From positions 4,121 to 68,120 of the forward strand of contig JAZUDT010000002.1 of assembly GCA_045639785.1 (NCBI GenBank): 64,000 nt of DNA, in the 5' to 3' direction. Both the position numbers and the translations under genes were made by a program. The notes below the pieces were generated by a model. That model was not told the DNA's origin, ran no database searches, and saw only the letters and a program-made list of their open reading frames with translations. Source of the stretch: Acutalibacteraceae bacterium (GTDB taxonomy: Bacteria; Bacillota; Clostridia; Oscillospirales; Acutalibacteraceae). This document shows positions 37,504-62,178 of the stretch, piece by piece. The number at the start of each line of letters is the position of its first letter. Within the stretch, counting starts at the first letter, position 1.

Positions 37504-37532
37504 ATTATAACAACTGTAAGACATTTTGTCAA
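37504..37532 (-). promoter_or_regulatory. sigma-A promoter of rpsF-ssb-rpsR
   Basis: The minus strand reads TTGACA-17 nt-TATAAT (tgtcaa at 37527-37532, attata at 37504-37509). The roughly 80-nt leader could hold the S6:S18 autoregulatory structure, but I did not verify this. Confidence 0.75.
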
Positions 37533-37631: not shown

Positions 37632-38042
37632 TCAGCTCAGAATCACAAACTGAATACTGCACGGCAGATATACGGAATTTGTGTTTGAGTCGGATTTTAT
37701 TTCACCGCATACCGCCTCATCGGGTTTATAGTAAGTACTGTCGTCGAGGGCGGATAAAATAACCGAAAAAAGCTCAAGAAGCTTTGACGGATTGCCGCTC
37801 TCGGAGCAGTGAATATTTATTCCCACCTTATAGGTCGTCTGCTTCGTGTAGCTTGTGTAATCGTCTCGGTAGGGAATAACGCTGACCTTTATGGGGTTGA
37901 GCAGAACATAGGTCTTGACCAGGGGGTTCGGTATTGCGTTTTTCTGATACGAAAGCCTGACCTCGGTAAAGGTATGGTCAATGCCCTCATAGGTATCGAT
38001 GAGCTCTTTTATCGCTTCAATAATGCTTTCAATAACAACCAT
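37632..38042 (-). CDS. phage hypothetical protein (position of a head-tail joining/neck protein)
   Basis: 136-aa ORF whose start overlaps the upstream stop by 1 nt. It is the last gene of the module. No recognisable motif. Confidence 0.4.
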   Translation of the reverse strand: MVVIESIIEAIKELIDTYEGIDHTFTEVRLSYQKNAIPNPLVKTYVLLNPIKVSVIPYRDDYTSYTKQTTYKVGINIHCSESGNPSKLLELFSVILSALDDSTYYKPDEAVCGEIKSDSNTNSVYLPCSIQFVILS

Positions 38043-38434
38043 TAACCGACCGCACCTCCTCCGGGTTCATTCCCCTCGTCATTGTCTTCGCCGAGAGTTA
38101 CCGGTCTTATTATCGCCCACACGTATATATCTTTTCCGCCGACATTGTGTTTTTCAGCTCTGTAAACAAGATAGGATTCCTCGCCTATGTACAGAATAGT
38201 GAACACCCCGTCCACACCCGATATATCAATATCCGGCGGACCTATGTAGAGATAATAGTCCTCCCTGTTTTTTCCTATTTCGGTATATTTCCCCCTGAGA
38301 TAGAGCTTGTTTTTGTATCTGAGAGGCTGAATAAACGCCTTAAAATTGTATATTGTCGATTCTTCCCCTATTATTTTAAGCTTTGCTTTCTGCCCGTATT
38401 TTTCAAAAAGCTTTTCCGTTTTCATATACTCCAC
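38042..38434 (-). CDS. phage head-closure / head-tail adaptor-like protein
   Basis: 130 aa, with size, position after the connector and beta-rich sequence like SPP1 gp16/HK97-type head-closure proteins. The assignment rests mainly on synteny. Confidence 0.45.
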   Translation of the reverse strand: MEYMKTEKLFEKYGQKAKLKIIGEESTIYNFKAFIQPLRYKNKLYLRGKYTEIGKNREDYYLYIGPPDIDISGVDGVFTILYIGEESYLVYRAEKHNVGGKDIYVWAIIRPVTLGEDNDEGNEPGGGAVG

Positions 38435-38787
38435 ACCCCGAACGAATTGTCACTGACAAGCTCCCGGACAGCCTGAGCTCCGTCATTTTTTATCTTTTCG
38501 GCAATATCAAGCGTTTCCTTCAGCCGTCTTTTGACGGTTAAGTCGCCCGCCTTGAAATCCGCATTTTCCTCAACGTCAGCCATGAGCGACAGCGCATACG
38601 AATAATATGCGTCGCAGGCGGCGGCATAGGGAATGCGAGGGTCGGAAAGGTCAGCGTCGCTTCTGAGCGTTTTCAGAAGCTTATCGAGCGAGGAACAGCA
38701 AAGGGACAGTATTCTCTCTGTCCCTTTTACGCTGTCGGGTGAAATGAGTGTGAGAAAAATGTTATAAACATCATCTGCGCTTATCAT
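38422..38787 (-). CDS. phage head-tail connector (gp6-like) protein
   Basis: 121-aa helical protein directly downstream of the capsid gene. The assignment is synteny-based. Confidence 0.45.
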   Translation of the reverse strand: MISADDVYNIFLTLISPDSVKGTERILSLCCSSLDKLLKTLRSDADLSDPRIPYAAACDAYYSYALSLMADVEENADFKAGDLTVKRRLKETLDIAEKIKNDGAQAVRELVSDNSFGVWSI

Positions 38788-38803
38788 AATTTCACCCTTT
38801 CAT

Positions 38804-39811
38804 TTACTGTGCGAGAACCTTTGAAGCATCGGAATAAATCTTGGCAAAGCCCGCTATTGAGGTGACGGCGGCTCTTTCAAGCTGGCGGTCAATGAGTTTG
38901 TCAAAGTCGGTGATTACGTCGCCCGCCTGCACCTTTTCGAGAGCACAGCTTCTGTCAAGGGCAATCATCTTGCCCGCCGGCACTGCATCACAGCGGATAA
39001 TCTCTGCGCCGAGAGGAGTAATGCACTTGCCGGTGCCGTGAAATGTGAGACCTGCGCTTGCGTCCTTGAACTCGCTCATGCTGAGAAGCTGAGTCATGAC
39101 ATCGGGCGGAACAATAACGGTTGTCATCTCATAGGGGTCAAATTTGTTCCAGAGCTTGACAAGGTCGTTATAGGTCAAAACGCCGGATGTGCCGGTTGAA
39201 ATAACCTCAGCGGAGTTGTTGTTGCCGTCGCCGTTTATGAGAACGTCAACTGCGTCCTTGAGCTGTGAGCGTGCGATGTATGCGCCAATCTGTCTGAGAG
39301 TGACGGTAAAAAGGTCGAGACGCTGGAATTTTACCGCCTCGTATGAAGCAACAAGCATTCTGCCTCTCTTGTTGAGCTTAACGAGATTTTCCTGCGTCTT
39401 AATTGTTGTCGAGGGGATAATCGCACCCTCGTTGACCGAATAGAGCTCCTTGCTGTCGTCGTCCGAAACGGAGGTTATCGAGCGGTAATCGAGAGAATTG
39501 ACCTTTGTCGTGGTGGCGATTATTCTGTCGAGCTTATCCGCTTTTTCCATACCCTGACGCACCGCACGGTTTACATACTCGGGGAAAAGAGCGGCGGAAT
39601 CTGAGGTTTTGAAGAATTTTTCCACCGTGTCGCTGGTTCTTCCGTTGACGTGGATACCGAAACGCTTGAGCTGTCTCTGGTATGCGTCAAGACCTTCGAG
39701 CGGCGAGCCCTTGTAGTTTTCCGACGGGTCAAGCTCCTCAAGAAGCTGTGAAAAGCTTTTTGAAGACGTGTAGAAGCTCTTGTCAAGCTTTAAATTCATA
39801 TATTCTGACAT
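38804..39811 (-). CDS. phage major capsid protein (HK97-fold class)
   Basis: 335 aa, positioned after the protease and the DUF2190-like gene. The sequence (ASYEAVKFQRLDLFTVTLRQIG...) resembles major capsid proteins as I recall them. Confidence 0.7.
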   Translation of the reverse strand: MSEYMNLKLDKSFYTSSKSFSQLLEELDPSENYKGSPLEGLDAYQRQLKRFGIHVNGRTSDTVEKFFKTSDSAALFPEYVNRAVRQGMEKADKLDRIIATTTKVNSLDYRSITSVSDDDSKELYSVNEGAIIPSTTIKTQENLVKLNKRGRMLVASYEAVKFQRLDLFTVTLRQIGAYIARSQLKDAVDVLINGDGNNNSAEVISTGTSGVLTYNDLVKLWNKFDPYEMTTVIVPPDVMTQLLSMSEFKDASAGLTFHGTGKCITPLGAEIIRCDAVPAGKMIALDRSCALEKVQAGDVITDFDKLIDRQLERAAVTSIAGFAKIYSDASKVLAQ

Positions 39812-39826
39812 TTTTCTTCCTCCTGA

Positions 39827-40177
39827 TTATAAAATAAAACCGACGACTGCGTTTTCAGCGTCGATGTCCGTGACGAGAATGCTTGAAGCAGTTGAAAGAA
39901 TCTTTGCTTTTCCGTCTGCGTCAAGTCCGAGATTACATTTTCCGAGAGTGATTGTCTCGCCGGAAAGAATCGGCGCAGTCATGTAGCCTTTGACCTGAAC
40001 TGTAACAAGGTCGCCGCATACATCGGCGCATTTTCCGACTATTTCGCCTGCCGCAACCGCCGAGACGGTGGCATTTGCGCTTATTGAGACAAAGTCGCCC
40101 TTTTCGATTTCGGCACTTGCCGCTTTTTTGAAGGTGAGGTATTCTGCTCCGGCACCCTCGAATGATACTTTTTTCAT
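39827..40177 (-). CDS. DUF2190-like small capsid-associated protein
   Basis: 116-aa beta-rich protein between the protease and the capsid gene, the canonical position and size for the DUF2190 family. Confidence 0.5.
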   Translation of the reverse strand: MKKVSFEGAGAEYLTFKKAASAEIEKGDFVSISANATVSAVAAGEIVGKCADVCGDLVTVQVKGYMTAPILSGETITLGKCNLGLDADGKAKILSTASSILVTDIDAENAVVGFIL

Positions 40178-40190
40178 TTTAGTCCTCCTG

Positions 40191-41105
40191 TTAAATCATG
40201 TAGTCGCTGTCCGGCTGACTTACTGTGTTTTCGTTTTTCTTTGCCGTCTGCGGAGCGCAGGGAAAAATTGCGCTCTTCTTTTTTTCAAGACTTTTTCTGA
40301 GCTGTCTGAGCGAGGCTGTGTCAAGTCCGGCACAAAGCTCCTGGGCGATGCCTTTTGATATTTCCGGCACCGTTAAGGAAAAAAGCTTTGTCACCTCAGA
40401 CAAAAGCTCGCTGCGGTATTCTCTTGCCTGAGAGGCTTCCTTTTCAAGCTCGCCGATATAGTCGCAGAGCTTCTTTTTTTCATCTTCGCCGCAGGCAAAT
40501 TCTTTGATAATATCTGTGGGATTTTCCGTTTTAACCGTCTCCTTTTTTCTGTACGATTTTGTGACGCCCGCCTCTCTCTGTGCGGGTACGGCAACGAATG
40601 ACCATTCATAAGCGTCTGTCGCCTTATCAAGCACCGTGCAGCAGATTTTTCCGCCATACGTCTTTCCCCTGATATGATTACAGTGCTCCATGCCGCATAT
40701 TGAGCAGGTATGCTTTGAGACACAGCAGCCGACGCTGACCTCTTTCTTTATACCTGCGTCAATTTCTTTGATAACGTCTTCGTTTTTCTTTGTTCTGACC
40801 ATGTAGGCTTTTGCTTTGAGCGCAGTGTAGGTTTCGCCTCTGCGAGTTGTTCTTCCGGGCGTTTCCTCAACCCATGTGCTGAATATTCTTGCCGACTGGT
40901 CGCCGCTTCTCATGCTGTGGTCGCTTATTCCCGTCTTTCCGATAAACAGCGTTTTAAGCTCGCTCAGAGCTTCGACGGTGAAGGCTTCATAATCCCTGTC
41001 AATTTCATTATCGCATAATGTGACGGGGAAAATATACACGTCCTCCTCCGACAGCTTCTTTCGTGAAAGCCCGTTGATAAGCTCCATATCTTTCTTACTT
41101 TCCAT
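40191..41105 (-). CDS. prohead protease / scaffold-like protein
   Basis: 304 aa between portal and capsid. The N-terminal half is protease-like (GKTGISDHSM) and the C-terminal half is charged coiled-coil, like a scaffold. A Cys cluster (CCVSKHTCSICGMEHCNH) is unusual. Confidence 0.5.
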   Translation of the reverse strand: MESKKDMELINGLSRKKLSEEDVYIFPVTLCDNEIDRDYEAFTVEALSELKTLFIGKTGISDHSMRSGDQSARIFSTWVEETPGRTTRRGETYTALKAKAYMVRTKKNEDVIKEIDAGIKKEVSVGCCVSKHTCSICGMEHCNHIRGKTYGGKICCTVLDKATDAYEWSFVAVPAQREAGVTKSYRKKETVKTENPTDIIKEFACGEDEKKKLCDYIGELEKEASQAREYRSELLSEVTKLFSLTVPEISKGIAQELCAGLDTASLRQLRKSLEKKKSAIFPCAPQTAKKNENTVSQPDSDYMI

Positions 41106-42339
41106 CTTTTTCCTCCGTTATGAGCTTTTGCGCCTGAGCGTTATAGTAGTTTGTCTGTGCAAGCTGTAATGAATCCTGAAGAGTAACGTCATTCCACTCA
41201 AGACTGAAGTTGGTGTCAATGCCGTTGAGTGAAAACCAGAATGAGCATATTTTTCTCAGTGCGGGATTGAGAATTTCACGGTAAAATTCTATTTCACTGG
41301 TGAGAATATCAGCCTGCTGAGCCGACATTCTTTCGGTCGATGACCAGTTGAGACCGAGAAGAAACGGCGGAACACCGAGCTTTGCCACAATCTGCTCAAG
41401 AAGCTGTCTGACGGGTATCTCACTGTCGGGTATCTGGCTGTCTGCGCCGATAACCTTGATGTCAACGTCACCGACGGCGACAAAGTCTCTCACGGGACCT
41501 GAGCTTTCCATCGTCTTGCTCCACTGCTCAGCGACCTGCTTTGCTCTCTGCTTTGCAAATGCCTTATCGGAGGAATCGTTCTGCGGCTTATACGTTACCG
41601 CATACCTGATATTCCCCGTTCTCTCCCAGTTTGTGCCGATAGTGTTGTAGATTTTGAGAAGAATATCGGCGACAAACGGCAGTCCCTTGAGAATCGAAGT
41701 GCCGTAGGGCGTGACGGGATTTTGTCCTATCGTGCTGATGAAAACAAGCTCCGGATACCTTATCGGCACAAACGAGCCGCTCCCGTCCTCAACCGAAACA
41801 ACGGTGCTGAGTCTGTCGGCGGAAAACGAAAGCTCTATATCGGAAATATCCGCATTGTATAAAGCCCCGAAGCTGTTTCCGTCGGTGACGATTTCACCGA
41901 CAGCCGTGCCGTAGGTGAGAAGAGAAGCAAAGTATTCACTGATAAAGCTGTTTATTCCCGCTGATGATGCGCCGACCTTGACACTGCAAAGAAAGCGGTT
42001 TATTTCCTCTTCGGCAAACTTGTCGGTGCATACCACTCTGAATGTGCCGAGAAGCCGTGTGAGCTTTTCTATTGCGGCACCGATGACGGGCACTGCGTCC
42101 TTCAGCTCGCCATACAGCTTCATTTCGCTTTTCTGTGACGGAAAATAATCCGAGAGGTGTGAATAGGGATGCTCATGCTTTTTTGTCTGAACTGCATTCT
42201 CGCACCCTGCGTCACTCTGATTTTTTCTCTGTTTTCCGAAAATCAAATCATTCTCCTTTCTCCGTATTTCATACGGAATTTCTTTCTGCCGCCACGACGA
42301 AGAAATCGTCCTCTTTTTTAAATAAAACCGTTGAAACAA
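41095..42339 (-). CDS. phage portal protein
   Basis: Approximately 400-aa ORF immediately after terL. The start is uncertain: the ORF-track start overlaps terL by 71 nt, and the internal Met (MKLYGELKD) is at 42123. Confidence 0.65.
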   Translation of the reverse strand: MFQRFYLKKRTISSSWRQKEIPYEIRRKENDLIFGKQRKNQSDAGCENAVQTKKHEHPYSHLSDYFPSQKSEMKLYGELKDAVPVIGAAIEKLTRLLGTFRVVCTDKFAEEEINRFLCSVKVGASSAGINSFISEYFASLLTYGTAVGEIVTDGNSFGALYNADISDIELSFSADRLSTVVSVEDGSGSFVPIRYPELVFISTIGQNPVTPYGTSILKGLPFVADILLKIYNTIGTNWERTGNIRYAVTYKPQNDSSDKAFAKQRAKQVAEQWSKTMESSGPVRDFVAVGDVDIKVIGADSQIPDSEIPVRQLLEQIVAKLGVPPFLLGLNWSSTERMSAQQADILTSEIEFYREILNPALRKICSFWFSLNGIDTNFSLEWNDVTLQDSLQLAQTNYYNAQAQKLITEEKDGK

Positions 42340-43546
42340 AATACCTTATATCGTCCATGGCGTGGTCATTTTCCTTTACGGGCGCATCTTTGCCGTGAGA
42401 TGAGTCCCAGCGGTAGAGCGAAAATTCTCTCAGTGCGTCCCTGCAGGAGGGTGAAATGCGTATAAGTGAGCTTCTCAGTGCGTCTGAGACTTTTCTTATT
42501 CCGTCAATTACGTCATTATCCGCCTTGATAACACGGTATTTTCCGTGTCTGCGTATGCATTCGATAAATGACGATGCCGACGGGTCAACGATAACTCCCG
42601 AAATATCATTTTCGGCGCAGAGAGAGCAAAGGTCGGCGTAATATTCCTCGTCGGTCTTCTGATAGCCCTCTCTTCTTGAAGAAAAGTAATGTTCCCTTTC
42701 CCTGTACCATACGCCGTCGCCGTGTAGTCCCCACAAACCCATTGAAGTCGGGTTGACTGTTCCGTAGTCACACGAGACAAAATGGGACGCCGCTTCATTG
42801 TCGGGAGGGGCAAGGGTATATTTTCCGTTTGCCGCATCGGGGTAAACAAGTCCGTCCGCCGCAACCCATTTTCCGAGCACGAAGCGTTCATAAAACGCTC
42901 CGCTGTAAAGGTTTTCGTACCGGCTTATCACTTTTTTTGAAAGGGAGGGATTGTCTTTCATTGTAAAGTGAAGATACAGTGCGTTTTTTTCTTCGCTTTT
43001 CTGTATCCATTCCTTATAAAACCAGTGCTGAGGATTTTCGGGATTGCAGTTGAACCAGAATCTTGCGCCGTCGAGCGAGCAACGTGCGAGAGCCTGCTCC
43101 ACGAATGAACGGGGCATAAGTGCGACTTCATCGAGCAGTACACCGCCCAATGTTACGCCCTGAATAAGTGAAGCGGAGCTTTCGTCCTTTCCGCCGAAGA
43201 GATAGTATCTGTTCTTTCTGCCTGACTGTGATATTTCGATAAAATTACGGGTGATGGTCTCCTTGCACTCAAAGCCGAGCCTTTTAAGCACCGGTATAAG
43301 CGGAGTGACGACATTTCTCCTCAGTGAGGACACCGTCTTTCCGCACAGCGCAAAATCGGCAGAGCTGAAAGAAGAAAAGCTCCAGGCGATGAAGCCTATC
43401 GACATACAGGTTGTTTTTCCGCTTCTCACCGCTCCGTCACAGATTATTGCGTCTTTTTCGCAATAGGGGGAATTTTTATTCCACCAGCTCAGAGCGGTGA
43501 GCTGTTTTTCACTGAAAGCGGTGAAATCTTTTTTACCTGTTTTCAT
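42269..43546 (-). CDS. phage terminase large subunit (PBSX-family-like)
   Basis: Walker A CDGAVRSGKTT, Walker B-like GVLLDE, and a C-terminal nuclease-domain acidic motif (HAMDDIRY). 425 aa. Confidence 0.85.
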   Translation of the reverse strand: MKTGKKDFTAFSEKQLTALSWWNKNSPYCEKDAIICDGAVRSGKTTCMSIGFIAWSFSSFSSADFALCGKTVSSLRRNVVTPLIPVLKRLGFECKETITRNFIEISQSGRKNRYYLFGGKDESSASLIQGVTLGGVLLDEVALMPRSFVEQALARCSLDGARFWFNCNPENPQHWFYKEWIQKSEEKNALYLHFTMKDNPSLSKKVISRYENLYSGAFYERFVLGKWVAADGLVYPDAANGKYTLAPPDNEAASHFVSCDYGTVNPTSMGLWGLHGDGVWYREREHYFSSRREGYQKTDEEYYADLCSLCAENDISGVIVDPSASSFIECIRRHGKYRVIKADNDVIDGIRKVSDALRSSLIRISPSCRDALREFSLYRWDSSHGKDAPVKENDHAMDDIRYFVSTVLFKKEDDFFVVAAERNSV

Positions 43547-44024
43547 CGTATCCTTTCCTCAGGGCGTCGGCACCGTCCTCGATGGCTTTGAAAAAGCTGT
43601 CGGTCGGATTTTCGTCATTGACGGCGGCAAGCTGAGAGAGCTTTTCAAGAGCCTTTATTCTGTCGAAAAACTTGATTTCGACTCCCTTTCCCTTGCTGAC
43701 CTTGATTTCCGAAATTCCAAACAAATCCATGTTTTTCACTTCCTCAGCGTCAAAATCCTCCGAAAGAGCAATTTTGACGGCGTCGCTGACACAGCCGAAG
43801 GCTATTCTTCTCAGCCCCGCCTCAACCTCGTTCGGGCAGGCACGGTTTTCCTTTGAAAGGGCGGCTATTTTTGCTTTAACGTTCTCTCTTCTGAGGAGCT
43901 TCACCGCAGTTCTCTCGGGCATAATGCCGTAGCCCGCCTTGATTGCCGCCTCAGTGGCATTTCTCCCCACGCTGTAATAAGTGCAAAACAGTTTTTCTTT
44001 TTCTGTGAGTGCTTTGTCTTTCAT
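43533..44024 (-). CDS. phage terminase small subunit
   Basis: LTEKEKLFCTYYSVGRNATEAAIKAGYG is the HTH signature of Terminase_2-type small subunits. It overlaps the terL start by 14 nt. Confidence 0.8.
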   Translation of the reverse strand: MKDKALTEKEKLFCTYYSVGRNATEAAIKAGYGIMPERTAVKLLRRENVKAKIAALSKENRACPNEVEAGLRRIAFGCVSDAVKIALSEDFDAEEVKNMDLFGISEIKVSKGKGVEIKFFDRIKALEKLSQLAAVNDENPTDSFFKAIEDGADALRKGYDENR

Positions 44025-44307
44025 TTTTCACCATTCCTTATACGCATTTTTCGTGCAGTGCAATATCCGAAGTCGTATGCGACTGCACATTTGCCCTCCG
44101 TAAATACCCTTAACAGCCCGATTTCCGTCGCAAAAAGTGACTGAAAACAAAGAGGACTTCACTTGTTAATAAAAAATTCATAAATTCCCCATGTTTTTAC
44201 CCTTTTTTATCAACTTTTTATAATTCATTTCCGATTTGGTCTTGATATTGAGCGAAAAAAATAGTTTAATATAAGGCGTACATATAAAATTACCGGAGGT
44301 AACAGAA

Positions 44308-45563: not shown

Positions 45564-45598
45564 AAATCAGTAAATAATTCAGTGGGAGAAACGTGCAG

Positions 45599-46018
45599 AT
45601 GAAAGATGAAATATTCAGAAAGAAAAGTCTTGATAAGGTGAAATCCCCCGAAAGCCTCGATGATTATATCCGCCTCTCCAATCCGGGAGTGTGGCTCCTG
45701 CTCGTCAGCGTCATAGTACTTTTAGCCGGTGCATGCGTCTGGGGCATATTCGGTCACATAGACAGAACCGTTGATACAAATATTTTTTCTCATGACGGAA
45801 CAGCGGTTTGCTATGTATCTGAAAAAGATATATCCGCCGTAAAACCCGATATGACCGTAAAGGGCGAAAACTATGAGGCTGTAATTGACAGTATCGGAGG
45901 AAAAACCGAATGGGGATATGTATGCCTTCTTCATTCCGACCAAAAGCTACCGGACGGACTTTATGACGGGGAGATAATCACAAACAAAATAAGACCGTTA
46001 TCATTTATTTTAAGCTGA
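45599..46018 (+). CDS. truncated HlyD-like (NHLP-type bacteriocin secretion adaptor N-terminal region) membrane protein
   Basis: FRKKSLDKVKSPESLDDYIRLSNPGVWLLLVSVIVLLAG is the conserved N-terminus plus TM helix of HlyD-family bacteriocin secretion proteins. The ORF is only about 139 aa, against roughly 400 aa for full adaptors. Confidence 0.6.
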   Translation: MKDEIFRKKSLDKVKSPESLDDYIRLSNPGVWLLLVSVIVLLAGACVWGIFGHIDRTVDTNIFSHDGTAVCYVSEKDISAVKPDMTVKGENYEAVIDSIGGKTEWGYVCLLHSDQKLPDGLYDGEIITNKIRPLSFILS

Positions 46019-46028
46019 GGTCGTTCTT

Positions 46029-48200
46029 ATGGCAGAAAAAGCAAAAAAACCTATATCAAAAGGCGTAGCCAAGGTGCCTGTCGTAATGCAGCTCGAAGCA
46101 CTGGAATGCGGTGCGGCAAGCCTTTGTATGATTTTAGCCTACTACAATAAATGGATACCTCTTGAACAGGTCCGTGAGGATTGCGGTGTATCCCGTGACG
46201 GCTCAAACGCAATGAATATGCTGAAAGCGGCAAGGGCATACGGGCTTAATGCAAGAGGATATCGCTATGAGCCGGAAAGTCTTAAAGAAAACGGCTCTTT
46301 CCCGTGTATTATACATTGGAATTTCAATCATTTTGTTGTGCTTGACGGCTTCAGAGGCGGAAAAGCCTTTTTGAATGACCCGGCTAAAGGCGCATACAGC
46401 GTTTCTATGGAGGCTTTCGACGAATCCTTCACCGGAATATGCCTTCAGTTTGAGCCGTCGGATTCCTTCGCCCCCTCGGGAAAGCCGAAAAGTATGCTTT
46501 CCTTTGCCGCAAAAAGGCTTAAAGGGAGCAGCGTTGCGATTATATTTACAGTCCTGACGGGCGTTATAGCCGCCACAATGGGCTTTGTTCAGCCTGCTTT
46601 TTCACGGGTATTTCTTGATTATCTGCTCAGCGGTGAGGAAAGAGACTGGGCTGTTCCGTTTCTTATTTTCCTCGGAGCTTTTAATTTAATTCAGATAATT
46701 ATGTCGGCATTAGAGGCTGTTTATTCCCTTCGTATAAACGGCAAAATGGCGGCAGTCGGAAACGCCTCCTATATGTGGAAGGTGCTCAAAATGCCGATGA
46801 AGTTTTTTTCACAGCGTATGGCGGGAGATATTCAGGGGCGGCAGAGTTCCCACGCTTCCATTGCCAATACACTGATAGGCACATTTGCCCCTCTTCTGCT
46901 CAATGCGATCATGATGATATTCTATCTTGCGGTAATGCTGAAATACAGTGTCGTGCTGACCGTTATCGGTCTTTTGTCACTTAGTATAAACGCTTTTGTT
47001 TCGGGTTACATATCAAAAAAGCGTGTCAATATCACAAGAGTTTCTATGCGTGACAGTGCAAAGCTTGCCGCCTCCACCGTTTCCGGAATTGAAATGATAG
47101 AAACAATTAAAGCATCCGGTGCGGAAGACGGGTATTTTAAAAAGTGGTCAGGCTATCAGGCAAGTGTGAATACACAGCAGGTGAAGTTTTTGAAGCTTGA
47201 CAGGTATCTCGGTATGATACCGCAGTTTGTTTCCGTCCTTGCAGATGACCTCGTACTGTTTATCGGTGTGTGGCTGACCATGCGGGGAGATTTCACCGTT
47301 GGTATGATTATGGCGTTTCAGGGATTTCTTGCCTCATTTATGGCTCCTGCTTTGACAATGGTTTCCGCCGGACAGACTATTCAGGAAATGCGTACACAGA
47401 TGGAACGTGTGGACGATGTTATGGAGTACCCCGATGATATCGTTTTAGCTGAAAGTCAATCCGACGGTAAAATAGAAAAGCTGTCAGGAAAAATGGAACT
47501 CAAGCATATCGTTTTCGGCTATTCTCCGCTTTCTGAGCCGCTTATACATGACTTTAATCTGACGGTGACACCGGGCAAAAGTGTCGCCGTTGTCGGTGCC
47601 TCAGGGTGCGGAAAATCAACCGTGTCAAAGCTTATTTCCGGACTGTATAAGCCTTGGAGCGGTGAAATACTTTTTGACGGAAAACCGATGAATGAAATTC
47701 CGAAGAATGTTTTTCGCTCTTCGCTTGCCGTTGTTGACCAGGATATAATTCTATTTGAGGATACTATCGCAAACAATATAAAAATGTGGGATGACAGCAT
47801 TGAAGACTTTGAAATGATTATTGCCGCCCACGACGCACAGCTTCACGAGGATATTATGCAGAGACCCAAGGGCTATCAGCATAAGCTCATTGAAGGCGGA
47901 AACGGTTTTTCCGGCGGGCAGAAACAGCGTATGGAAATTGCCCGTGCTCTTGCACAGGATCCGACAATCATTATTCTTGATGAGGCAACAAGTGCTCTTG
48001 ATGCCAAGACGGAATATGAGGTCGTAAAGGCGATACGCAACCGTAATATTACCTGCATAGTTATCGCACACCGACTCTCGACCATTCGTTCCTGTGATGA
48101 AATAATCGTTATGGAAAACGGCGAAATAAAGGACAGAGGAACACATAAAGAGCTTTTAGAGACAAGCGAAATTTACCGCGAACTCATCACTGCGGAATAA
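46029..48200 (+). CDS. bacteriocin-type ABC exporter with N-terminal C39 peptidase domain (NHLP-system peptidase/permease/ATPase)
   Basis: The C39 catalytic Cys context is QLEALECGAASLCMILAYYNKW, with HFVVLDG downstream. It has 6 TM helices, Walker A GASGCGKST, signature FSGGQKQR and Walker B IIILDEATSALD. Confidence 0.9.
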   Translation: MAEKAKKPISKGVAKVPVVMQLEALECGAASLCMILAYYNKWIPLEQVREDCGVSRDGSNAMNMLKAARAYGLNARGYRYEPESLKENGSFPCIIHWNFNHFVVLDGFRGGKAFLNDPAKGAYSVSMEAFDESFTGICLQFEPSDSFAPSGKPKSMLSFAAKRLKGSSVAIIFTVLTGVIAATMGFVQPAFSRVFLDYLLSGEERDWAVPFLIFLGAFNLIQIIMSALEAVYSLRINGKMAAVGNASYMWKVLKMPMKFFSQRMAGDIQGRQSSHASIANTLIGTFAPLLLNAIMMIFYLAVMLKYSVVLTVIGLLSLSINAFVSGYISKKRVNITRVSMRDSAKLAASTVSGIEMIETIKASGAEDGYFKKWSGYQASVNTQQVKFLKLDRYLGMIPQFVSVLADDLVLFIGVWLTMRGDFTVGMIMAFQGFLASFMAPALTMVSAGQTIQEMRTQMERVDDVMEYPDDIVLAESQSDGKIEKLSGKMELKHIVFGYSPLSEPLIHDFNLTVTPGKSVAVVGASGCGKSTVSKLISGLYKPWSGEILFDGKPMNEIPKNVFRSSLAVVDQDIILFEDTIANNIKMWDDSIEDFEMIIAAHDAQLHEDIMQRPKGYQHKLIEGGNGFSGGQKQRMEIARALAQDPTIIILDEATSALDAKTEYEVVKAIRNRNITCIVIAHRLSTIRSCDEIIVMENGEIKDRGTHKELLETSEIYRELITAE

Positions 48201-48214
48201 AGGGGGTGTCATAA

Positions 48215-50401
48215 ATGGGATGGTTTGAAGAACAGCTTAAATATCGGGAAGAAACTGACAATGCCGACTTTGCTGATGCTATAGATTCCATTGCCGGTGC
48301 GGTTATGGGAAGACATTTGCAGGATGCCCTGAGCCAGAATGAGATTGCCGATTCCGCCATTGATGAAATACTGAAATTCTATCACTGCAAGACAAGGACG
48401 GAAGAAATTCCGCCGCAGATAAAAACACCAGAAGAAAAAATCAAATACCGTATGCGTCCGTTCGGTATTAAGAGCCGCACGGTAACGCTCGACAGGGGCT
48501 GGTACCGCCATGCGGTGGGTGCAATGCTCGGCACGCTAAAAGAGGACGGCTCCGCCACCGCTCTGATACCGGGCAAGTTTTCCGGCTATCATCTCATAAA
48601 CTTCAAAACGGGTGAACGGGTAAAACTCAACCGAAAAAACGAAAACCTCATTAATAAGGAAGCATTATGCTTTTACGAGCCGCTTCCTCAAAAGGCTCTT
48701 TCGGTGAGCGACCTTCTGAAATTTATGTTTCAGCATCTCAGTTTTTCGGATATTTTTCTGTATCTGCTTCTTATGGCACTTTCGTCCGCCTTGGGGCTTC
48801 TTTCCCCTCTTTTCACAAGGTGGCTTTTCAGCGACGTTCTCGAAAGCGGTAATTTGCAGATTTTAGTTTCCCTTGCAATATTTATGATATGCTTTTCAGT
48901 AAGCAGTCTTTGCTTCGGCACATTTCAGACGCTTATCAATTCACGCATTTCGATAAAGCAGAATATTGCCGTGCAGGCGGCGGTTATGAACCGCATTATA
49001 AGTCTGCCGCCGTCATTCTTCAAAAACTATTCCGCCGGTGAGCTTTCACAGCGTGCCTCTTATGTTCAGTCACTGTGCTCCACCATGTTCAACACAATAG
49101 GTATGACGGGACTGACTTCTCTCTTTTCACTTATATATATCGGGCAGATTTTTGTCTTTGCTCCGTCACTTGTCGTGCCCGCTCTTCTCATCACTGTTTT
49201 AACGGTTGTTCTTTCCCTTATAACTACGTTTATGCAGATAAGAATTACACGTGAAACAATGGAAATTTCCGCAAAGACAAGCGGTCTTACATATTCAACA
49301 ATTACGGGCATACAAAAAATCAAACTTGCCGGAGCGGAAAAAAGGATGTTTTCACGATGGGCAAGACAATATGCAAGAGAAGCACAGCTCAGCTACAATC
49401 CGCCTCTCTTTCTTAAGTTGAGCACGACAATGAGCCTTGCACTTTCACTTATCGGAACAATGGTGCTTTATGCCGTTGCGATAAAAAATCAAGTCGGTGT
49501 TGCCGATTACTATGCTTTCAACACCGCATACGGTATGGTTTCATCGGCGTTTATGTCTGCTGTATCCATTGCCGTGACCGCCGCAAACATAAAGCCGACG
49601 CTTGAAATGGCAAAGCCCATTATGGAAGCTGAGCCGGAGGTGCACGACGGAAAAGAAAATATTGCCGAGCTTCATGGTGCTATTGAGCTGTCGCACGTTT
49701 CTTTTCGCTATGAGGAGTCAATGCCGAATATAATCGACGATTTGTCACTGAAAATAACACCGGGTGAATATCTTGCCGTTGTCGGTCCCACAGGATGCGG
49801 AAAAAGTACACTTCTGCGTCTGCTTTTAGGCTTTGAAACGCCGCAAAGGGGAAATATTTTATTTGATAAAAAGGATATTGTTTCAATAGACCTCGAATCA
49901 CTTCGCAGAAAAATCGGCGTTGTGATGCAGGACGGAAAGCTGTTTTTAGGTGATATATATTCCAACATAGTCATTACCGCCCCCGAGCTCACCTTGGATG
50001 AAGCGTGGGAAGCGGCTGAAACAGCATCTATAGCAGATGATATTCGCAATATGCCGATGGGCATGAGCACTGTGATTTGCGAGGGACAGGGCGGCATTTC
50101 CGGCGGACAGAAGCAGCGTCTTATGATAGCCAGAGCCATCGCCCCTAAGCCGAAAATACTGATGTTTGACGAAGCGACAAGTGCACTTGATAATATTACG
50201 CAAAAGAAAGTGTCCGATGCGATAGACTCTCTCAAATGCACAAGAATTGTTATAGCTCACCGTCTTTCCACCATTCAGCACGCAGACCGTATCATTTATC
50301 TTGAAAACGGCAGGATAGTTGAAGACGGAACATATAAAGAGCTTATCGAAAAGAACGGATGCTTTGCAAAGCTTATTGAGCGTCAGAGGCTTGATATTTG
50401 A
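48215..50401 (+). CDS. second ABC exporter subunit (NHLP-system permease/ATPase, no peptidase Cys)
   Basis: 728 aa. The N-terminal approximately 150-aa non-C39 domain is followed by a TMD and an NBD (GPTGCGKST, ISGGQKQR, ILMFDEATSALD). This matches the partner ABC of NHLP/NHLM export systems. Confidence 0.85.
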   Translation: MGWFEEQLKYREETDNADFADAIDSIAGAVMGRHLQDALSQNEIADSAIDEILKFYHCKTRTEEIPPQIKTPEEKIKYRMRPFGIKSRTVTLDRGWYRHAVGAMLGTLKEDGSATALIPGKFSGYHLINFKTGERVKLNRKNENLINKEALCFYEPLPQKALSVSDLLKFMFQHLSFSDIFLYLLLMALSSALGLLSPLFTRWLFSDVLESGNLQILVSLAIFMICFSVSSLCFGTFQTLINSRISIKQNIAVQAAVMNRIISLPPSFFKNYSAGELSQRASYVQSLCSTMFNTIGMTGLTSLFSLIYIGQIFVFAPSLVVPALLITVLTVVLSLITTFMQIRITRETMEISAKTSGLTYSTITGIQKIKLAGAEKRMFSRWARQYAREAQLSYNPPLFLKLSTTMSLALSLIGTMVLYAVAIKNQVGVADYYAFNTAYGMVSSAFMSAVSIAVTAANIKPTLEMAKPIMEAEPEVHDGKENIAELHGAIELSHVSFRYEESMPNIIDDLSLKITPGEYLAVVGPTGCGKSTLLRLLLGFETPQRGNILFDKKDIVSIDLESLRRKIGVVMQDGKLFLGDIYSNIVITAPELTLDEAWEAAETASIADDIRNMPMGMSTVICEGQGGISGGQKQRLMIARAIAPKPKILMFDEATSALDNITQKKVSDAIDSLKCTRIVIAHRLSTIQHADRIIYLENGRIVEDGTYKELIEKNGCFAKLIERQRLDI

Positions 50402-50527: not shown

Positions 50528-51040
50528 ATGAAAACTTCTTACTTCTCCAACCTCACTCCTAACGCTCTGAAAGAGCAAATCTACCGTGATTTTTACGGCA
50601 AGGTCTACGGTTACATACTGTCGAAAATTCAGAATGTGCAGAATGCGGAGGACCTGACGTCGAATGTTTTTCTCAAGGTATATGAAAAGCTCGACACGTT
50701 TGACGACAGCAAGGCCTCTCTTTCCACATGGATTTACACCATAACAAGAAACACGCTGACGGATTTTTACCGCACGAGAAAGGTTTTTGACGAAATACCC
50801 GAAAACCAGGAGAGCGGCTTTTCTCTTGAAGATGAGGTATGCAATGCTCAGACGCTTGAAATGCTGGCACAGGCACTTGAAACGCTTGACGAGCGGGAAC
50901 GGGATATTGTTATTTTCCGCTACTACTCGGGCAAAACGCTCAGGGATATTTCGGAGCAGATGAATATTTCGTATGCATACGTTAAGGTGCTTCAGAATAA
51001 AGCGTTGGCAAAATTGAGAAAATTTTTGGAAAATCAGTAG
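50528..51040 (+). CDS. ECF-like sigma-70 family RNA polymerase sigma factor
   Basis: Region 2 is AEDLTSNVFLKVYEKLDTFDDSKASLSTWIYTITRNTLTDFYR and region 4 is ERERDIVIFRYYSGKTLRDISEQMNISYAYVKVLQNKALAKLR. The start MKTSYF at 50528 follows AAGGA. Confidence 0.85.
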   Translation: MKTSYFSNLTPNALKEQIYRDFYGKVYGYILSKIQNVQNAEDLTSNVFLKVYEKLDTFDDSKASLSTWIYTITRNTLTDFYRTRKVFDEIPENQESGFSLEDEVCNAQTLEMLAQALETLDERERDIVIFRYYSGKTLRDISEQMNISYAYVKVLQNKALAKLRKFLENQ

Positions 51041-51066
51041 CCGCTTTTTAAATTTCATCGTATAAA
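51028..51066 (+). promoter_or_regulatory. conserved promoter/5'UTR module, copy 1 (overlaps sigma gene stop)
   Basis: ggaaaatcagtagccgctttttaaatttcatcgtataaa. It shares GAAAAATCAGTAGCC-N-CTTTT-N-AAA-N3-CATCGTATAAA with copies 2 and 3. An RBS and ATG of peptide gene a follow about 30 nt downstream. Confidence 0.55.
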
Positions 51067-51095
51067 CAGATGAAAGGGGCAAGGAGGTAACAAAA

Positions 51096-51275
51096 ATGGA
51101 AAAGAAATTTGAACTTAATGATAAAGAGCTTGAAAAAGTCAGCGGCGGACCCGAAGAACGCACGGTGCTCGGCTTGAAGGCTTCATCGGATTGCAGAAAA
51201 TGCGAATGCGGGCAGATTATTGAAGATGACGGCCTTGCGTTCTGCCCGTTTTGCGGAAGCAAAATAAGCGATTGA
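51096..51275 (+). CDS. double-glycine-leader peptide a (zinc-ribbon-like core)
   Basis: Not in the ORF track because it is only 59 aa. The sequence is MEKKFELNDKELEKVSGG / PEERTVLGLKASSDCRKCECGQIIEDDGLAFCPFCGSKISD. The RBS AAGGAGG lies 8 nt upstream. Confidence 0.7.
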   Translation: MEKKFELNDKELEKVSGGPEERTVLGLKASSDCRKCECGQIIEDDGLAFCPFCGSKISD

Positions 51276-51283
51276 TAAAAACA

Positions 51284-51323
51284 GAAAAATCAGTAGCCAC
51301 TTTTTAAAAAGCATCGTATAAAT
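51284..51323 (+). promoter_or_regulatory. conserved promoter/5'UTR module, copy 2
   Basis: gaaaaatcagtagccactttttaaaaagcatcgtataaa, followed by AAGGAGG and ATG 51353. Confidence 0.55.
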
Positions 51324-51352
51324 ATATGCAACGAGGTAAGGAGGCAATAAAA

Positions 51353-51610
51353 ATGGAAAGAAAACTTAATGCAATTTTTGATTATCAGAATTTTGAAAAA
51401 AATCCCCGTCTTGAAAAGCTTATTTCGGAAACCGAGAACCGGTATGCGAGGGAGCTTTCAGATGACGATCTCACTTTTGTCAATGCGGCTGGCGATTTCA
51501 ACATGAGCGGCGGACTTATAAGCGAAAATGAAATTTCTGAAAAAAACAGCACTCCGACATCGTCCGCTGTATTTGGTAAATCAGTCAATGTCAATGAAGT
51601 GCTTACCTAA
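51353..51610 (+). CDS. small hydrophilic protein b (possible long-leader peptide or regulator)
   Basis: 85 aa: MERKLNAIFDYQNFEKNPRLEKLISETENRYARELSDDDLTFVNAAGDFNMSGG / LISENEISEKNSTPTSSAVFGKSVNVNEVLT. The RBS AAGGAGG lies 7 nt upstream. It has no TM segment. Confidence 0.55.
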   Translation: MERKLNAIFDYQNFEKNPRLEKLISETENRYARELSDDDLTFVNAAGDFNMSGGLISENEISEKNSTPTSSAVFGKSVNVNEVLT

Positions 51611-51660
51611 GCCTGAAAATTGAATGAATAATAATTAAACTGAAAGAGGTGGATTCTGAA

Positions 51661-51900
51661 ATGAAAACAAAAGAAGAACTGAATGAGCTCAAAAAAGAAT
51701 ACGAAAACGTAAAAAGCAAGCTTTCCGAGCTTAGTGAATACGAGCTTAAAGAGGTCACGGGCGGCTATCATTGCGGGATCAATGCGAACTCCGGCACAAT
51801 GATTCATGCACCGACCTTCGGAGCGGTTGCAGATACGGCTCCATACATTGATACAGGATTATCTTCAGATGTTAACAATAAAGAAATAAAGGTCGATTAA
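51661..51900 (+). CDS. double-glycine-leader peptide c
   Basis: 79 aa: MKTKEELNELKKEYENVKSKLSELSEYELKEVTGG / YHCGINANSGTMIHAPTFGAVADTAPYIDTGLSSDVNNKEIKVD. RBS AGAGGTGG. Confidence 0.75.
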   Translation: MKTKEELNELKKEYENVKSKLSELSEYELKEVTGGYHCGINANSGTMIHAPTFGAVADTAPYIDTGLSSDVNNKEIKVD

Positions 51901-51926
51901 ATTATATTATAGGAGGAGATTTAACC

Positions 51927-52097
51927 ATGAAAACTAAAGAAGAACTGAACGAACTCAAAAAAGAATACGAAAACGTAAAAAGCAAGCTTTCCGAGCTTAG
52001 CGAAGACGAGCTTAAAGAAGTCGTCGGCGGAGTCGGAGGCGATCCGATTGACATCGAAGTATATACCAACTGGGAAATTCTACCCACAATACAGTAA
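51927..52097 (+). CDS. double-glycine-leader peptide d
   Basis: Not in the ORF track (56 aa). The sequence is MKTKEELNELKKEYENVKSKLSELSEDELKEVVGG / VGGDPIDIEVYTNWEILPTIQ. RBS AGGAGGAG. The leader is 33/35 identical to peptide c. Confidence 0.75.
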   Translation: MKTKEELNELKKEYENVKSKLSELSEDELKEVVGGVGGDPIDIEVYTNWEILPTIQ

Positions 52098-52135
52098 CGG
52101 ATTTGACAGTAAAAACTAAAAAGGAGGAATTTCTC

Positions 52136-52318: not shown

Positions 52319-52380
52319 CTTGCTGATAAATACTCAGAAAAAATTTGGAATAAGAGTAATAAAAAATGCCAACGATATCC

Positions 52381-62170: not shown

Positions 62171-62178
62171 GTGTAAAA

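What the first reader, a model, noticed from the sequence alone, without database searches (positions are those of the whole stretch)
37632..44024. Intact head-and-packaging-only phage module wedged beside rpsF-ssb-rpsR
**Seen in sequence.**
- Nine uninterrupted, translationally coupled genes run terS, terL, portal, protease/scaffold, DUF2190-like, major capsid, connector, head closure, plus one unknown.
- The last stop is only about 100 nt from the rpsF promoter, and terS begins about 280 nt from an unrelated oxidoreductase gene.
- There is no integrase, repressor, replication, tail, tape-measure, holin or endolysin gene on either side within this window.
- The composition looks host-like.

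**Established knowledge.** Capsid-forming phage-inducible chromosomal islands, described in 2023, encode their own heads and packaging machinery and hijack helper tails. Those islands, however, also carry integrase and replication modules. Gene transfer agents are another class of domesticated head-containing elements.

**Inference.** With all frames intact and overlapping, this is more likely a maintained (domesticated or satellite-derived) capsid module than random prophage decay.
Basis: partly seen in the sequence, partly recalled or inferred. Interest (0 to 1): 0.65.

Follow-up and report, generated by a model that had tools for sequence, protein, structure and literature searches.

The report
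Host-kept tail-less phage head operon
A gut Clostridia chromosome carries an intact nine-gene phage operon that builds a DNA-filled capsid and neck but no tail; the host lineage has inherited it under selection across a whole genus, so it looks like a domesticated, gene-transfer-agent-like capsid maker and not a dead prophage.

Summary
No tail, lysis, integrase or replication gene lies nearby.

It is not prophage decay.
- The capsid gene is single-copy and intact in 24 of 25 sampled congeners, and terS-terL-portal-g4 is collinear in 39 of 41.
- dN/dS is 0.02-0.24 for all genes, and dS matches the flanking host genes.
- Codon usage is host-like (r = 0.94, against 0.53 for a true prophage in the same genome).

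Trees place it in one tail-less clade (Acutalibacteraceae). Its relatives carry head plus baseplate, or head plus short contractile tail plus holin. That fits a stepwise loss of the tail.

The cognate baseplate is absent from this genome and from 23 of 24 congeners.

Most likely it makes tail-less, DNA-filled capsids in a GTA-like way. Delivery may use borrowed tails, but this is unproven. The published FpGTA belongs to a different capsid lineage. The rpsF adjacency is species-level only. No expression or particle data could be obtained.

The parts
43533..44024 (-). terS, small terminase with an N-terminal HTH-type DNA-binding region
   Evidence: PF03592 Terminase_2, E 9e-21, covering profile positions 1-132 of 141; phrog_51, E 1e-22. 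dN/dS 0.09-0.14.
42269..43546 (-). terL, PBSX-family large terminase
   Evidence: TIGR01547, 184.7 bits against a cut-off of 105. PF03237 and PF04466. phrog_2, E 4e-45.
41095..42246 (-). Portal protein. The ORF runs from the TTG at 42339; the likely start is the TTG at 42246.
   Evidence: phrog_30703, E 4e-126; PF04860. Start candidate with an AAGGAG ribosome-binding site.
40191..41105 (-). g4: probable prohead protease (N-terminal half, with an inserted Cys/His cluster) fused to a coiled-coil scaffold (C-terminal half)
   Evidence: phrog_16951, E 9e-95, function unknown. Invariant residues include H62, S123, C133, C136, C141, H143, C154 and the stretch D163-A-Y-E, S168-F-V-A, P173, Q175. Only 1 of 45 homologues touches PF14550 (XkdF protease), at E 0.004. 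The function is inferred.
39827..40177 (-). g5: small head protein, possibly decoration or cement; dispensable in one subclade
   Evidence: phrog_4588 virion structural protein, E 2e-13; PF09956 below its cut-off. Absent in a Fimenecus subgroup.
38804..39811 (-). Major capsid protein, HK97 fold
   Evidence: PF25209, E 2e-19; phrog_3922, E 5e-105; TIGR01554, weak. dN/dS 0.02-0.11.
38422..38787 (-). g7: presumed head-tail adaptor
   Evidence: Assigned by position only. The family is conserved (48 members, invariant G80 inside a conserved FKAGDVT-like stretch of the consensus). No Pfam, PHROG or PDB sequence hit.
38042..38434 (-). g8: stopper / head-closure protein
   Evidence: AlphaFold2 model, pLDDT 75. 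Foldseek top hits are lambda gpFII (8k37_M), SPP1 gp16 (7z4w) and the T1 stopper (9l0e_A), at E about 0.02 with probability 0.99-1.0.
37632..38042 (-). g9: tail terminator protein, the fastest-evolving gene of the module
   Evidence: AlphaFold2 model, pLDDT 92. Foldseek hits at E from about 1e-6 to 2e-4: lambda gpU 3fz2, T5 p142 8bcu, SaPI1 neck 9mu3_D, pyocin R2 collar 6u5f, monocin cap 9j1j. hhalign links it to the ninth gene of the other forms at 95-97% probability. 48% amino-acid identity to L033, against 88% for the MCP.
44163..44181 (-). Leader box 1, ATGAATTTTTTATTAACAA, conserved in short-form loci (consensus RTGAAY-N4-5-TGTWAAYA)
   Evidence: Comparison of 36 terS upstream regions; sequence read. 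By my own letter count, the spacing to box 2 is 53-54 nt in four loci. Function unknown.
44094..44109 (-). Leader box 2, GGGTATTTACGGAGGG, conserved in both short and long forms. It may be the -10/start region of a promoter that is not sigma-70 consensus.
   Evidence: No sigma-70 match on this strand in 44025-44307. No Rfam family.
37504..37532 (-). rpsF promoter (TTGACA-17-TATAAT, with TG). It marks the downstream end of the module.
   Evidence: 12 of 12 matches. No terminator-like site between the g9 stop and rpsF.

Best explanation
This is a chromosomally fixed, vertically inherited phage-derived operon. It encodes everything needed to assemble a capsid, fill it with DNA and seal it: TerS/TerL, portal, protease-scaffold, capsid protein, adaptor, stopper and tail terminator. 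It encodes nothing for adsorption, injection, lysis, replication or integration.

It is the most reduced member of a family of PBSX-like, host-kept particle clusters in Oscillospirales:
- head + short contractile tail + holin, in Oscillospiraceae;
- head + Mu/P2-type baseplate without sheath or tape measure, in a 'Ruminococcus' clade;
- head + neck only, in one Acutalibacteraceae clade that includes this window.

Shown here: gene identities, intactness, single-copy genus-wide presence, purifying selection, co-divergence with the flanking genes, host-like codon usage, absence of the cognate baseplate, and monophyly of the tail-less form.

Inferred: on an unknown signal the operon is transcribed from a promoter that lacks a sigma-70 consensus. 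The terminase, whose large subunit is of the PBSX family, loads DNA into small HK97-fold heads; a headful mode is assumed from that family, not tested. The neck closes them, and tail-less DNA-filled capsids leave the cell when it lyses by other means. This is GTA-like behaviour.

My preferred delivery route is docking of tails made by co-resident or neighbouring phages, that is, cf-PICI-style tail piracy. The fast-evolving terminator and stopper would be the interface. This last step is speculative.
For: Identity.

Conservation:
- MCP is single-copy and intact in 24 of 25 sampled congeners.
- terS-terL-portal-g4 is collinear in 39 of 41 congeners.
- MCP is present in 35 of 301 genomes of the order, always as one copy with no internal stop.

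Selection and vertical descent:
- NG86 dN/dS is 0.02-0.24 for every module gene in the pairs of short-form loci where dS could be estimated. This is the same range as the flanking host genes.
- In the closer pairs, module dS is in the same range as flank dS: for example 0.18-0.38 against 0.22-0.42 in L042/L043, apart from the ninth gene (dS 1.06).
- RSCU correlation with the genome is 0.94. It is 0.53 for the siphovirus prophage on contig C43 and 0.27 for a low-GC island.

Phylogeny:
- In the MCP tree all 23 short forms fall in one clade of 35, with no long form among them (SH-aLRT 94).
- In the TerL+portal+MCP tree, long and short forms are separated by one branch (support 84).

Relatives carry tails:
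- Baseplate_J, a sheath-initiator-like protein (PF10934, below its cut-off), a LysM protein and a Mu gp44-like hub.
- Sheath and holin in Pseudoflavonifractor capillosus ATCC 29799.

No partner locus:
- tblastn with all baseplate and tail proteins finds nothing in the own genome.
- PF04865 is absent from the own genome and from 23 of 24 congeners.
- PF10145 is absent from all 24 congeners.

Neck genes diverge fastest: against L033, g7 is 73%, g8 63% and g9 48% identical, while MCP is 88%. cf-PICI adaptor and connector genes, which set tail specificity, behave the same way (10.1101/2025.02.11.637232).

Context: GTA-like packaging of 4.6-8.9 kb host DNA has been measured in gut Ruminococcaceae and Oscillospiraceae (PMC12946183).
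Against: - There is no expression, particle or packaged-DNA evidence for this element.
- A tail-less capsid has no known way to deliver DNA.
- No lysis gene is linked.
- TerS keeps a canonical DNA-binding N-terminus, whereas the published FpGTA TerS lacks an obvious DNA-binding domain (PMC12946183). Packaging may therefore be site-directed, not random.
- The neck proteins of the only prophage in this genome show no similarity to g7-g9.
- All the relatives checked for tail genes come from MAG-style draft assemblies; MAGs often miss prophages, so absence of tail genes there is weaker than it looks.
- Flanking synteny breaks down beyond close relatives. Deep vertical descent therefore rests on copy number, trees and dS.
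- The direction of change (tail loss) depends on midpoint rooting.
Confidence: 0.6

Rival explanations
1. Split system: the module is only the head locus of a complete particle. The tail, receptor-binding and lysis genes lie elsewhere in the chromosome, as in FpGTA I/II, RcGTA or BaGTA.
For: FpGTA has a separate 5.5-kb baseplate/fibre/lysis operon 125 kb away from the head operon. The retained tail terminator implies some partner on the tail side. The genomes are draft MAGs.
Against: No homologue of any baseplate, sheath, tube or holin protein of the sister forms is found in the 98.8%-complete own genome. Baseplate_J is absent from 23 of 24 congeners and PhageMin_Tail from 24 of 24. The one tail cluster in the own genome belongs to an ordinary complete siphovirus prophage with its own head genes.
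Confidence: 0.1
2. A capsid-forming satellite (cf-PICI-like), or one recently immobilised. It is still mobilised by helper phages and packages mainly itself.
For: The gene content of the packaging module matches cf-PICIs: terS, terL, portal, protease, capsid, adaptor, connector, with no tail and no lysis. TerS keeps its DNA-binding domain. A 2026 preprint describes similar head-only clusters as satellite-like.
Against: No tyrosine integrase (PF00589) on this contig and no replication, regulation or att-like feature among the ORFs scanned. The module is 6.4 kb, against 10-18 kb for cf-PICIs. It is one copy in 39 of 41 congeners. dS equals that of host flanks, and codon usage is host-like. No near-identical copies occur across species (best 88% MCP identity).
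Confidence: 0.07
3. A capsid maker kept for a purpose other than gene delivery. One option is anti-phage interference: it soaks up phage tails, or hijacks phage DNA packaging, so that infecting phages yield fewer infective particles. Another is a protective store or export vehicle for DNA.
For: The tail terminator and stopper are retained and evolve fast, as expected for an interface with changing foreign partners. Phage satellites are known to interfere with helpers by competing for virion parts (general knowledge; cf-PICI literature). No delivery apparatus exists.
Against: The cf-PICI preprint reports that tail-less capsids use excess free tails and do not reduce phage titre. Conservation of terS/terL argues that DNA packaging itself is the selected function. 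There is no direct evidence.
Confidence: 0.15
4. An ordinary decaying prophage remnant left by a recent deletion of the tail, lysis and lysogeny modules.
For: Head-only remnants are common in bacterial genomes. A few relatives show damaged genes: the L048 MCP is 243 aa, and L045 has odd ORF lengths.
Against: All nine frames are intact here and in nearly all of about 35 short-form loci. dN/dS is 0.02-0.24. The module is single-copy across the genus. The short clade is deep, with MCP identity down to about 60% within it. Codon usage is host-like.
Confidence: 0.03

Closest known systems
PBSX (xkd/xtm) phage-like element of Bacillus subtilis
   Same: The TerL is a PBSX-family terminase (TIGR01547 above its cut-off). 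In sister forms the baseplate genes follow a P2/PBSX-like order as I recall it from PBSX: LysM protein, hub, spike, gp25-like, J, I. It is chromosomally resident and lacks replication genes.
   Different: PBSX has a full contractile tail, a tape measure, a lysis cassette and its own regulators (Xre, Xpf). The window element has no tail, lysis or regulator genes. No other module protein was compared directly with its PBSX counterpart.
FpGTA of Faecalibacterium prausnitzii (Borodovich et al., Nat Commun 2026, PMC12946183)
   Same: A host-fixed head/packaging operon in an Oscillospirales gut anaerobe, without integrase or replication genes. Its particles look tail-less by electron microscopy. It offers a setting for the measured GTA-like packaging.
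   Different: FpGTA uses an N4-gp56-family capsid protein and a Prp protease, so it is a different capsid lineage. Its TerS lacks an obvious DNA-binding domain. It has a second operon with baseplate, fibre, receptor-binding protein, holin and endolysin. None of that is found here.
Capsid-forming PICIs (cf-PICIs) and their tail piracy
   Same: The packaging-module content is the same, and tail and lysis genes are absent. Tail-less DNA-filled capsids are the product. The neck genes are the most divergent part.
   Different: cf-PICIs are mobile 10-18 kb islands with integrase, alpA, replication and regulation modules, usually an HNH, and they package themselves. The window element is 6.4 kb, immobile and vertically inherited.
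RcGTA-type gene transfer agents of Alphaproteobacteria
   Same: Phage-derived structural genes under purifying selection, inherited vertically, with no replication or integration genes.
   Different: RcGTA encodes a complete tail, head spikes and fibres, partly at other loci. No relation to RcGTA was found or looked for here; the taxon is different.
Head-only 12.7-kb cluster in Butyricicoccaceae QXXE01 (murine transductome preprint 10.64898/2026.07.08.737213)
   Same: An Oscillospirales MAG cluster with terS, terL and capsid genes but no tail, proposed as a GTA candidate resembling capsid-forming satellites.
   Different: That cluster also carries a transcriptional activator, a holin and an endolysin. 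Its sequence relationship to this module was not tested.

Membership tests
Gene transfer agent (GTA) | Phage-like structural gene cluster in the host chromosome without replication, integration or lysogeny genes | tested here: met
Gene transfer agent (GTA) | Vertical inheritance with the host and purifying selection | tested here: met
Gene transfer agent (GTA) | Particles package more or less random host DNA in pieces too small to carry the whole cluster | not testable with these tools
TerS keeps a DNA-binding domain, so random packaging is not assured.
Gene transfer agent (GTA) | A tail or adsorption apparatus that delivers DNA to recipient cells | tested here: not met
   No tail, baseplate or fibre genes are linked to the module, and none homologous to those of the sister forms occurs elsewhere in the genome.
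cf-PICI (capsid-forming phage-inducible chromosomal island) | Integrase or recombinase plus replication and regulation modules; size 10-18 kb | tested here: not met
   No PF00589 hit on contig C2. The flanking genes are rpsF-ssb-rpsR and an oxidoreductase. The module is 6.4 kb.
cf-PICI (capsid-forming phage-inducible chromosomal island) | Its own packaging module (terS, terL, portal, protease, capsid, adaptor, connector) with no tail or lysis genes | tested here: met
   No HNH endonuclease was found.
cf-PICI (capsid-forming phage-inducible chromosomal island) | Mobile: near-identical copies across strains or species, with a patchy distribution | tested here: not met
   One copy in 39 of 41 congeners, diverging in step with the host. 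The closest copy is 88% identical in the MCP.
FpGTA | N4-gp56-family capsid protein with a Prp protease in operon I | tested here: not met
   The MCP matches PF25209 and weakly TIGR01554 (HK97 type). NCBIfam listed no N4-gp56 capsid or Prp model for any module protein. FpGTA annotation is taken from the supplement.
FpGTA | A second operon with baseplate, fibre, receptor-binding protein, holin and endolysin | tested here: not met
PBSX-like phage-like element | PBSX-family large terminase | tested here: met
   TIGR01547, 184.7 bits against a cut-off of 105.
PBSX-like phage-like element | Contractile tail (sheath, tube, tape measure) and lysis cassette | tested here: not met
   Absent from the window and from the genome's cognate set. 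Present in the relative L078: sheath phrog_279 at E 1e-49, and a holin.
Degraded prophage remnant | Frameshifts, truncations and relaxed selection | tested here: not met
   Frames are intact. dN/dS is 0.02-0.24.

The most novel reading that the evidence does not exclude
A whole clade of gut Acutalibacteraceae has kept, since before its species diverged (capsid identity within the clade falls to about 60%), an immobile capsid factory that lost its own tail. Its DNA-filled heads become infective only by docking onto tails made by unrelated phages. This would be a host-owned 'tail-pirating' gene transfer agent. The retained, fast-evolving tail terminator would cap and capture foreign tail tubes. 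If TerS recognises a site inside the operon, the element could also drive one-directional, lateral-transduction-like export of the neighbouring chromosome without ever excising.
Probability: 0.25. Interest if true: 0.85.

Novelty: new variant of a known kind. Interest (0 to 1): 0.62.

Why it matters
VLP sequencing has recently shown that gut Ruminococcaceae and Oscillospiraceae package large amounts of their own DNA into small capsids (PMC12946183). The genes responsible are known only for Faecalibacterium.

This module belongs to a second, widespread and unrelated capsid lineage. In this sample it was found in about 12% of Oscillospirales species, and in nearly all species of this genus.

Its relatives form a natural reduction series, from a mini contractile particle to a bare head. 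A tail-less form kept under selection raises a sharp, testable question: what use is a DNA-filled capsid that cannot inject? The candidate answers are tail piracy by a host-owned element, uptake through competence, or anti-phage interference. Any of these would extend current ideas about gene transfer agents and about gene flow in the gut and rumen microbiome.

Tried and rejected
1. Megablast of the module against 50,697 phage records found nothing.
   - By protein, the only close hits are five 'UNVERIFIED Bacteriophage sp.' faecal scaffolds. The one examined (MT835508.1) is a bacterial chromosome piece carrying the short form.
   - Isolated phages reach 25% MCP identity at most.

2. I asked whether those virome scaffolds show chromosomal DNA of this clade inside particles.
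   - IleS of this genome matches MT835536 and MT835484 at 72% and 60%.
   - A Mexican children's faecal virome study, which I take (unverified) to be their source, removed Kraken-classified bacterial reads before assembly (PMC8361208).
   - Survival of DNA from uncultured lineages therefore says nothing about enrichment. Claim dropped.

3. Upstream synteny with Fimenecus loci (two ABC transporters) looked shared but is not orthologous.
   - The ABC proteins are 28% identical.
   - The small neighbouring gene looks MarR-like (by eye) there and is unrelated here.

4. The rpsF adjacency is not conserved in the genus.

5. Profile searches of PDB sequences for g4, g5, g7, g8 and g9 gave nothing significant. 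Only the fold searches helped.

6. A Pfam scan of 45 g4 homologues gave one weak XkdF-protease hit.

7. The terminator-like hairpins seen in many relatives' leaders are absent in the window. No Rfam family matches the leader.

8. One search was my own error: I pasted an incorrect capsid sequence. It is void and was repeated correctly.

10. The two L102 ORFs with weak matches on own contig C37 have no Pfam hit. They were not followed further.

Full report
**Observation.**

The nine ORFs are present on the minus strand exactly as described.

HMM searches identify six of them:
- TerS: PF03592, E 9e-21.
- TerL: TIGR01547 'PBSX family', 184.7 bits against a cut-off of 105.
- Portal: phrog_30703, E 4e-126.
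- A small virion protein: phrog_4588.
- An HK97-type capsid protein: PF25209 and phrog_3922, E 5e-105.
- g4 belongs to phrog_16951, which has no assigned function.

The last three genes had no sequence-level hits, so I folded two of them using family alignments.
- g9 (pLDDT 92) has the tail-terminator fold. It matches lambda gpU, T5 p142, the SaPI1 neck, the pyocin R2 collar and the monocin cap, at E from about 1e-6 to 2e-4.
- g8 (pLDDT 75) best matches neck stoppers: lambda gpFII, SPP1 gp16 and the T1 stopper, at E about 0.02 with probability near 1.
- g7 is called the adaptor by position only.

g4 has invariant His, Ser and Cys residues, a conserved ...AYEWSFVAVPAQ... stretch and a coiled-coil tail. 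This fits a protease-scaffold fusion, but only one of 45 homologues touches the XkdF protease model.

The portal probably starts at the TTG at 42246, behind an AAGGAG site.

- rpsF-ssb-rpsR lie downstream, behind a perfect sigma-70 promoter at 37532-37504.
- An NAD-dependent oxidoreductase gene lies 283 nt upstream, followed by a bacteriocin-type ABC exporter pair.
- The contig has no tyrosine integrase (PF00589) and the window has no tRNA.

**Who else has it.**

The genome is an Acutalibacteraceae MAG (Oscillospirales), judged from the titles of its closest matches.
- The capsid gene is found once, uninterrupted, in 24 of 25 sampled genomes of the genus. The exception is only 60% complete.
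- A concatenated query shows terS-terL-portal-g4 collinear in 39 of 41 congeners.
- Across the order it occurs in 35 of 301 sampled species, always as a single intact copy. That includes 11 of 18 genomes from other genera of the same family.
- No isolated phage has a close relative of the capsid protein; the best is 25% identity.
- The only close 'phage' records are unverified faecal virome scaffolds; the one examined is a bacterial chromosome piece carrying the same module.

**Three architectures, one family.**

I clustered the ORFs of 80 related loci and annotated them. This gives three forms.
- Oscillospiraceae, for example Pseudoflavonifractor capillosus ATCC 29799: head genes followed by a sheath (phrog_279, E 1e-49), a tube-sized protein, a baseplate hub, the rest of the baseplate, and a holin.
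- A large clade labelled 'Ruminococcus': head genes followed directly by a terminator, a small protein, a LysM protein, a Mu gp44-like hub (PDB profile E 1e-10), a sheath-initiator-like protein (PF10934, below its cut-off), Baseplate_J, a Mu gp48-like protein and a small fibre-like protein. There is no sheath and no tape measure.
- One clade of Acutalibacteraceae / 'Fimenecus' loci that includes the window: only the nine head-and-neck genes, followed by host genes.

The ninth gene is homologous across the forms (hhalign 95-99.8%).

Trees separate the forms cleanly.
- In the MCP tree all 23 verifiable short forms, and no long form, fall in one clade of 35 (SH-aLRT 94).
- In a TerL+portal+MCP tree a single branch divides long from short (support 84).
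- With midpoint rooting this reads as stepwise loss: first the tail shaft, then the baseplate.

**Maintained, not decaying.**

- In ten pairs of short-form loci, wherever dS could be estimated, every module gene has NG86 dN/dS between 0.02 and 0.24, including terS, terL and the terminator.
- The flanking host genes give 0.03-0.16.
- In the closer pairs the synonymous divergence of the module is in the same range as that of the flanks.
- ORF lengths are as expected in nearly all short-form loci. L048 and L045 are the exceptions, and g5 is missing in one subclade.
- The module's codon usage correlates 0.94 with the genome's long ORFs. Window host genes give 0.975, a genuine siphovirus prophage on contig C43 gives 0.53, and the low-GC island at 55-62 kb gives 0.27.

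Two points weaken a simple 'fixed at one site' picture.
- The rpsF adjacency is shared only with the closest relative (L033). L034 shares the oxidoreductase flank only.
- The apparent ABC-transporter synteny with Fimenecus is not orthologous.

**Is there a hidden tail?**

- tblastn with every tail, baseplate, sheath and holin protein of the sister forms finds nothing in this 98.8%-complete genome.
- Baseplate_J is absent here and in 23 of 24 congeners.
- PhageMin_Tail is absent from all 24 congeners.
- Its one hit in the own genome led to a complete-looking siphovirus prophage on contig C43, at about 56-86 kb. It has TerL, capsid, major tail, tape measure, Dit, Tal, holin and endolysin genes.
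- That prophage has its own head genes, and its neck proteins show no similarity to g7-g9.
- It could supply tails and lysis in this strain. It cannot explain conservation across the genus.

**Regulation.**

- The 283-nt leader has no sigma-70 match on the coding strand and no Rfam family.
- Comparison of 36 leaders shows two conserved boxes. In the four short-form leaders I counted by hand they lie 53-54 nt apart.
- Box 1 is at 44163-44181 and is specific to short forms.
- Box 2 is at 44094-44109, GGGTATTTACGGAGGG, and is shared with long forms. In the long-form leaders I read by eye it sits roughly 25-30 nt before terS.
- Many relatives have a terminator-like hairpin between the boxes. The window does not.
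- I read box 2 as the -10/start region of an activator-dependent or alternative-sigma promoter. This is inference only.
- No terminator separates g9 from the rpsF promoter.

**Comparison with what is known.**

- Borodovich et al. (PMC12946183) measured GTA-like packaging of 4.6-8.9 kb host fragments in gut Ruminococcaceae and Oscillospiraceae, and characterised FpGTA.
- FpGTA has an N4-gp56-type capsid, a Prp protease and a second baseplate/lysis operon. It is therefore a different lineage and architecture.
- cf-PICIs make tail-less capsids that later dock onto foreign tails, and their adaptor and connector genes set tail specificity and diverge fastest. Here too the neck genes diverge fastest: against L033, g7 is 73%, g8 63% and g9 48% identical, while MCP is 88%.
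- The element lacks every mobility feature of a satellite, however.
- A 2026 preprint flags a head-only cluster (with activator, holin and endolysin) in Butyricicoccaceae as a GTA candidate.
- Earlier notes of this scan on other genomes describe the same three architectures and reach similar readings. I reached mine independently. I re-tested the long forms and the contractile-tail form.

**Verdict.**

The evolutionary statement is well supported: this is a host-fixed, selected, tail-less derivative of a PBSX-like particle cluster. I put it at about 0.85.

The functional statement is inference: that it makes DNA-filled tail-less capsids in a GTA-like way, with delivery by borrowed tails as my preferred route.

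It is a new variant of a known kind. It would be worth a modest experimental effort, because it could identify a second, widespread source of capsid-borne host DNA in gut ecosystems.

Noticed in passing
own genome contig C43, about 56,100-86,000 (loci L114, L115): A complete-looking siphovirus prophage: TerL, portal, protease, HK97-type capsid, major tail, tape measure, Dit, Tal, holin and endolysin, plus a cytosine methyltransferase-like gene. An IS30-like transposase lies next to it. Codon usage is foreign (r = 0.53). It is a possible donor of tails and lysis for the head-only module, but its neck proteins are unrelated to g7-g9.
   Followed up: partly
window 44053-44181, minus strand: The terS leader holds two conserved boxes about 53 nt apart (44163-44181 and 44094-44109) and a 7-bp-stem hairpin (44053-44088). 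Box 2 is shared by long and short forms in many genera. Many relatives carry a terminator-like hairpin between the boxes (23 of 36 leaders, against 3.7 expected from shuffles). The mechanism is unknown.
   Followed up: partly
L078, L102 (Oscillospiraceae); L104, L111 ('Ruminococcus' clade): Sister elements form a reduction series. One form has head + short contractile tail + holin. The other has head + Mu/P2-type baseplate with no sheath and no tape measure. Both are single-copy, and no integrase was looked for or seen next to them. The baseplate-only form is an odd particle design in its own right.
   Followed up: partly
phage collection records MT835508.1, MT835952.1, MT835769.1, MT836604.1, MT838993.1, MT835536.1, MT835484.1: GenBank 'UNVERIFIED Bacteriophage sp.' scaffolds from human faecal samples in Mexico. 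MT835508.1 is a 46.7-kb bacterial chromosome piece carrying the short form, and two others carry IleS at 72% and 60% identity to this genome. Bacterial reads were filtered before assembly in the VLP study I take to be their source, so enrichment in particles cannot be claimed.
   Followed up: partly
L110:4480-5571: In an unrelated long-form locus (uncultured Eubacteriales), rpsR-ssb-rpsF lies immediately upstream of the element on the opposite strand. This is a second, independent adjacency to the rpsF operon. It may be chance or a trace of an old site.
   Followed up: no
window 24656-24824, minus strand: Lysine riboswitch (RF00168, 65 bits, E 1e-14), upstream of the 539-aa ORF at 22956-24575.
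   Followed up: no
window about 51,000-64,000: A low-GC island (GC 0.29-0.39 against 0.45 for the genome; codon-usage correlation 0.27), probably acquired horizontally. Earlier scan notes place a TcmP-like methyltransferase and radical-SAM pair at 60157-62017.
   Followed up: no
window 45593-50401, plus strand: A 141-aa membrane-anchored protein followed by two ABC exporters, the first with a C39 peptidase domain. This looks like a bacteriocin-type export system, transcribed divergently from the module beyond the oxidoreductase gene.
   Followed up: no
G004:C70, G022:C7:66391-67602, G023:C39, G044:C168: Some congeners carry a second PBSX-family TerL (about 50% identity) on another contig. In G022 it lies next to an extra ssb-like gene. 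These are presumably ordinary prophages of a related lineage.
   Followed up: no
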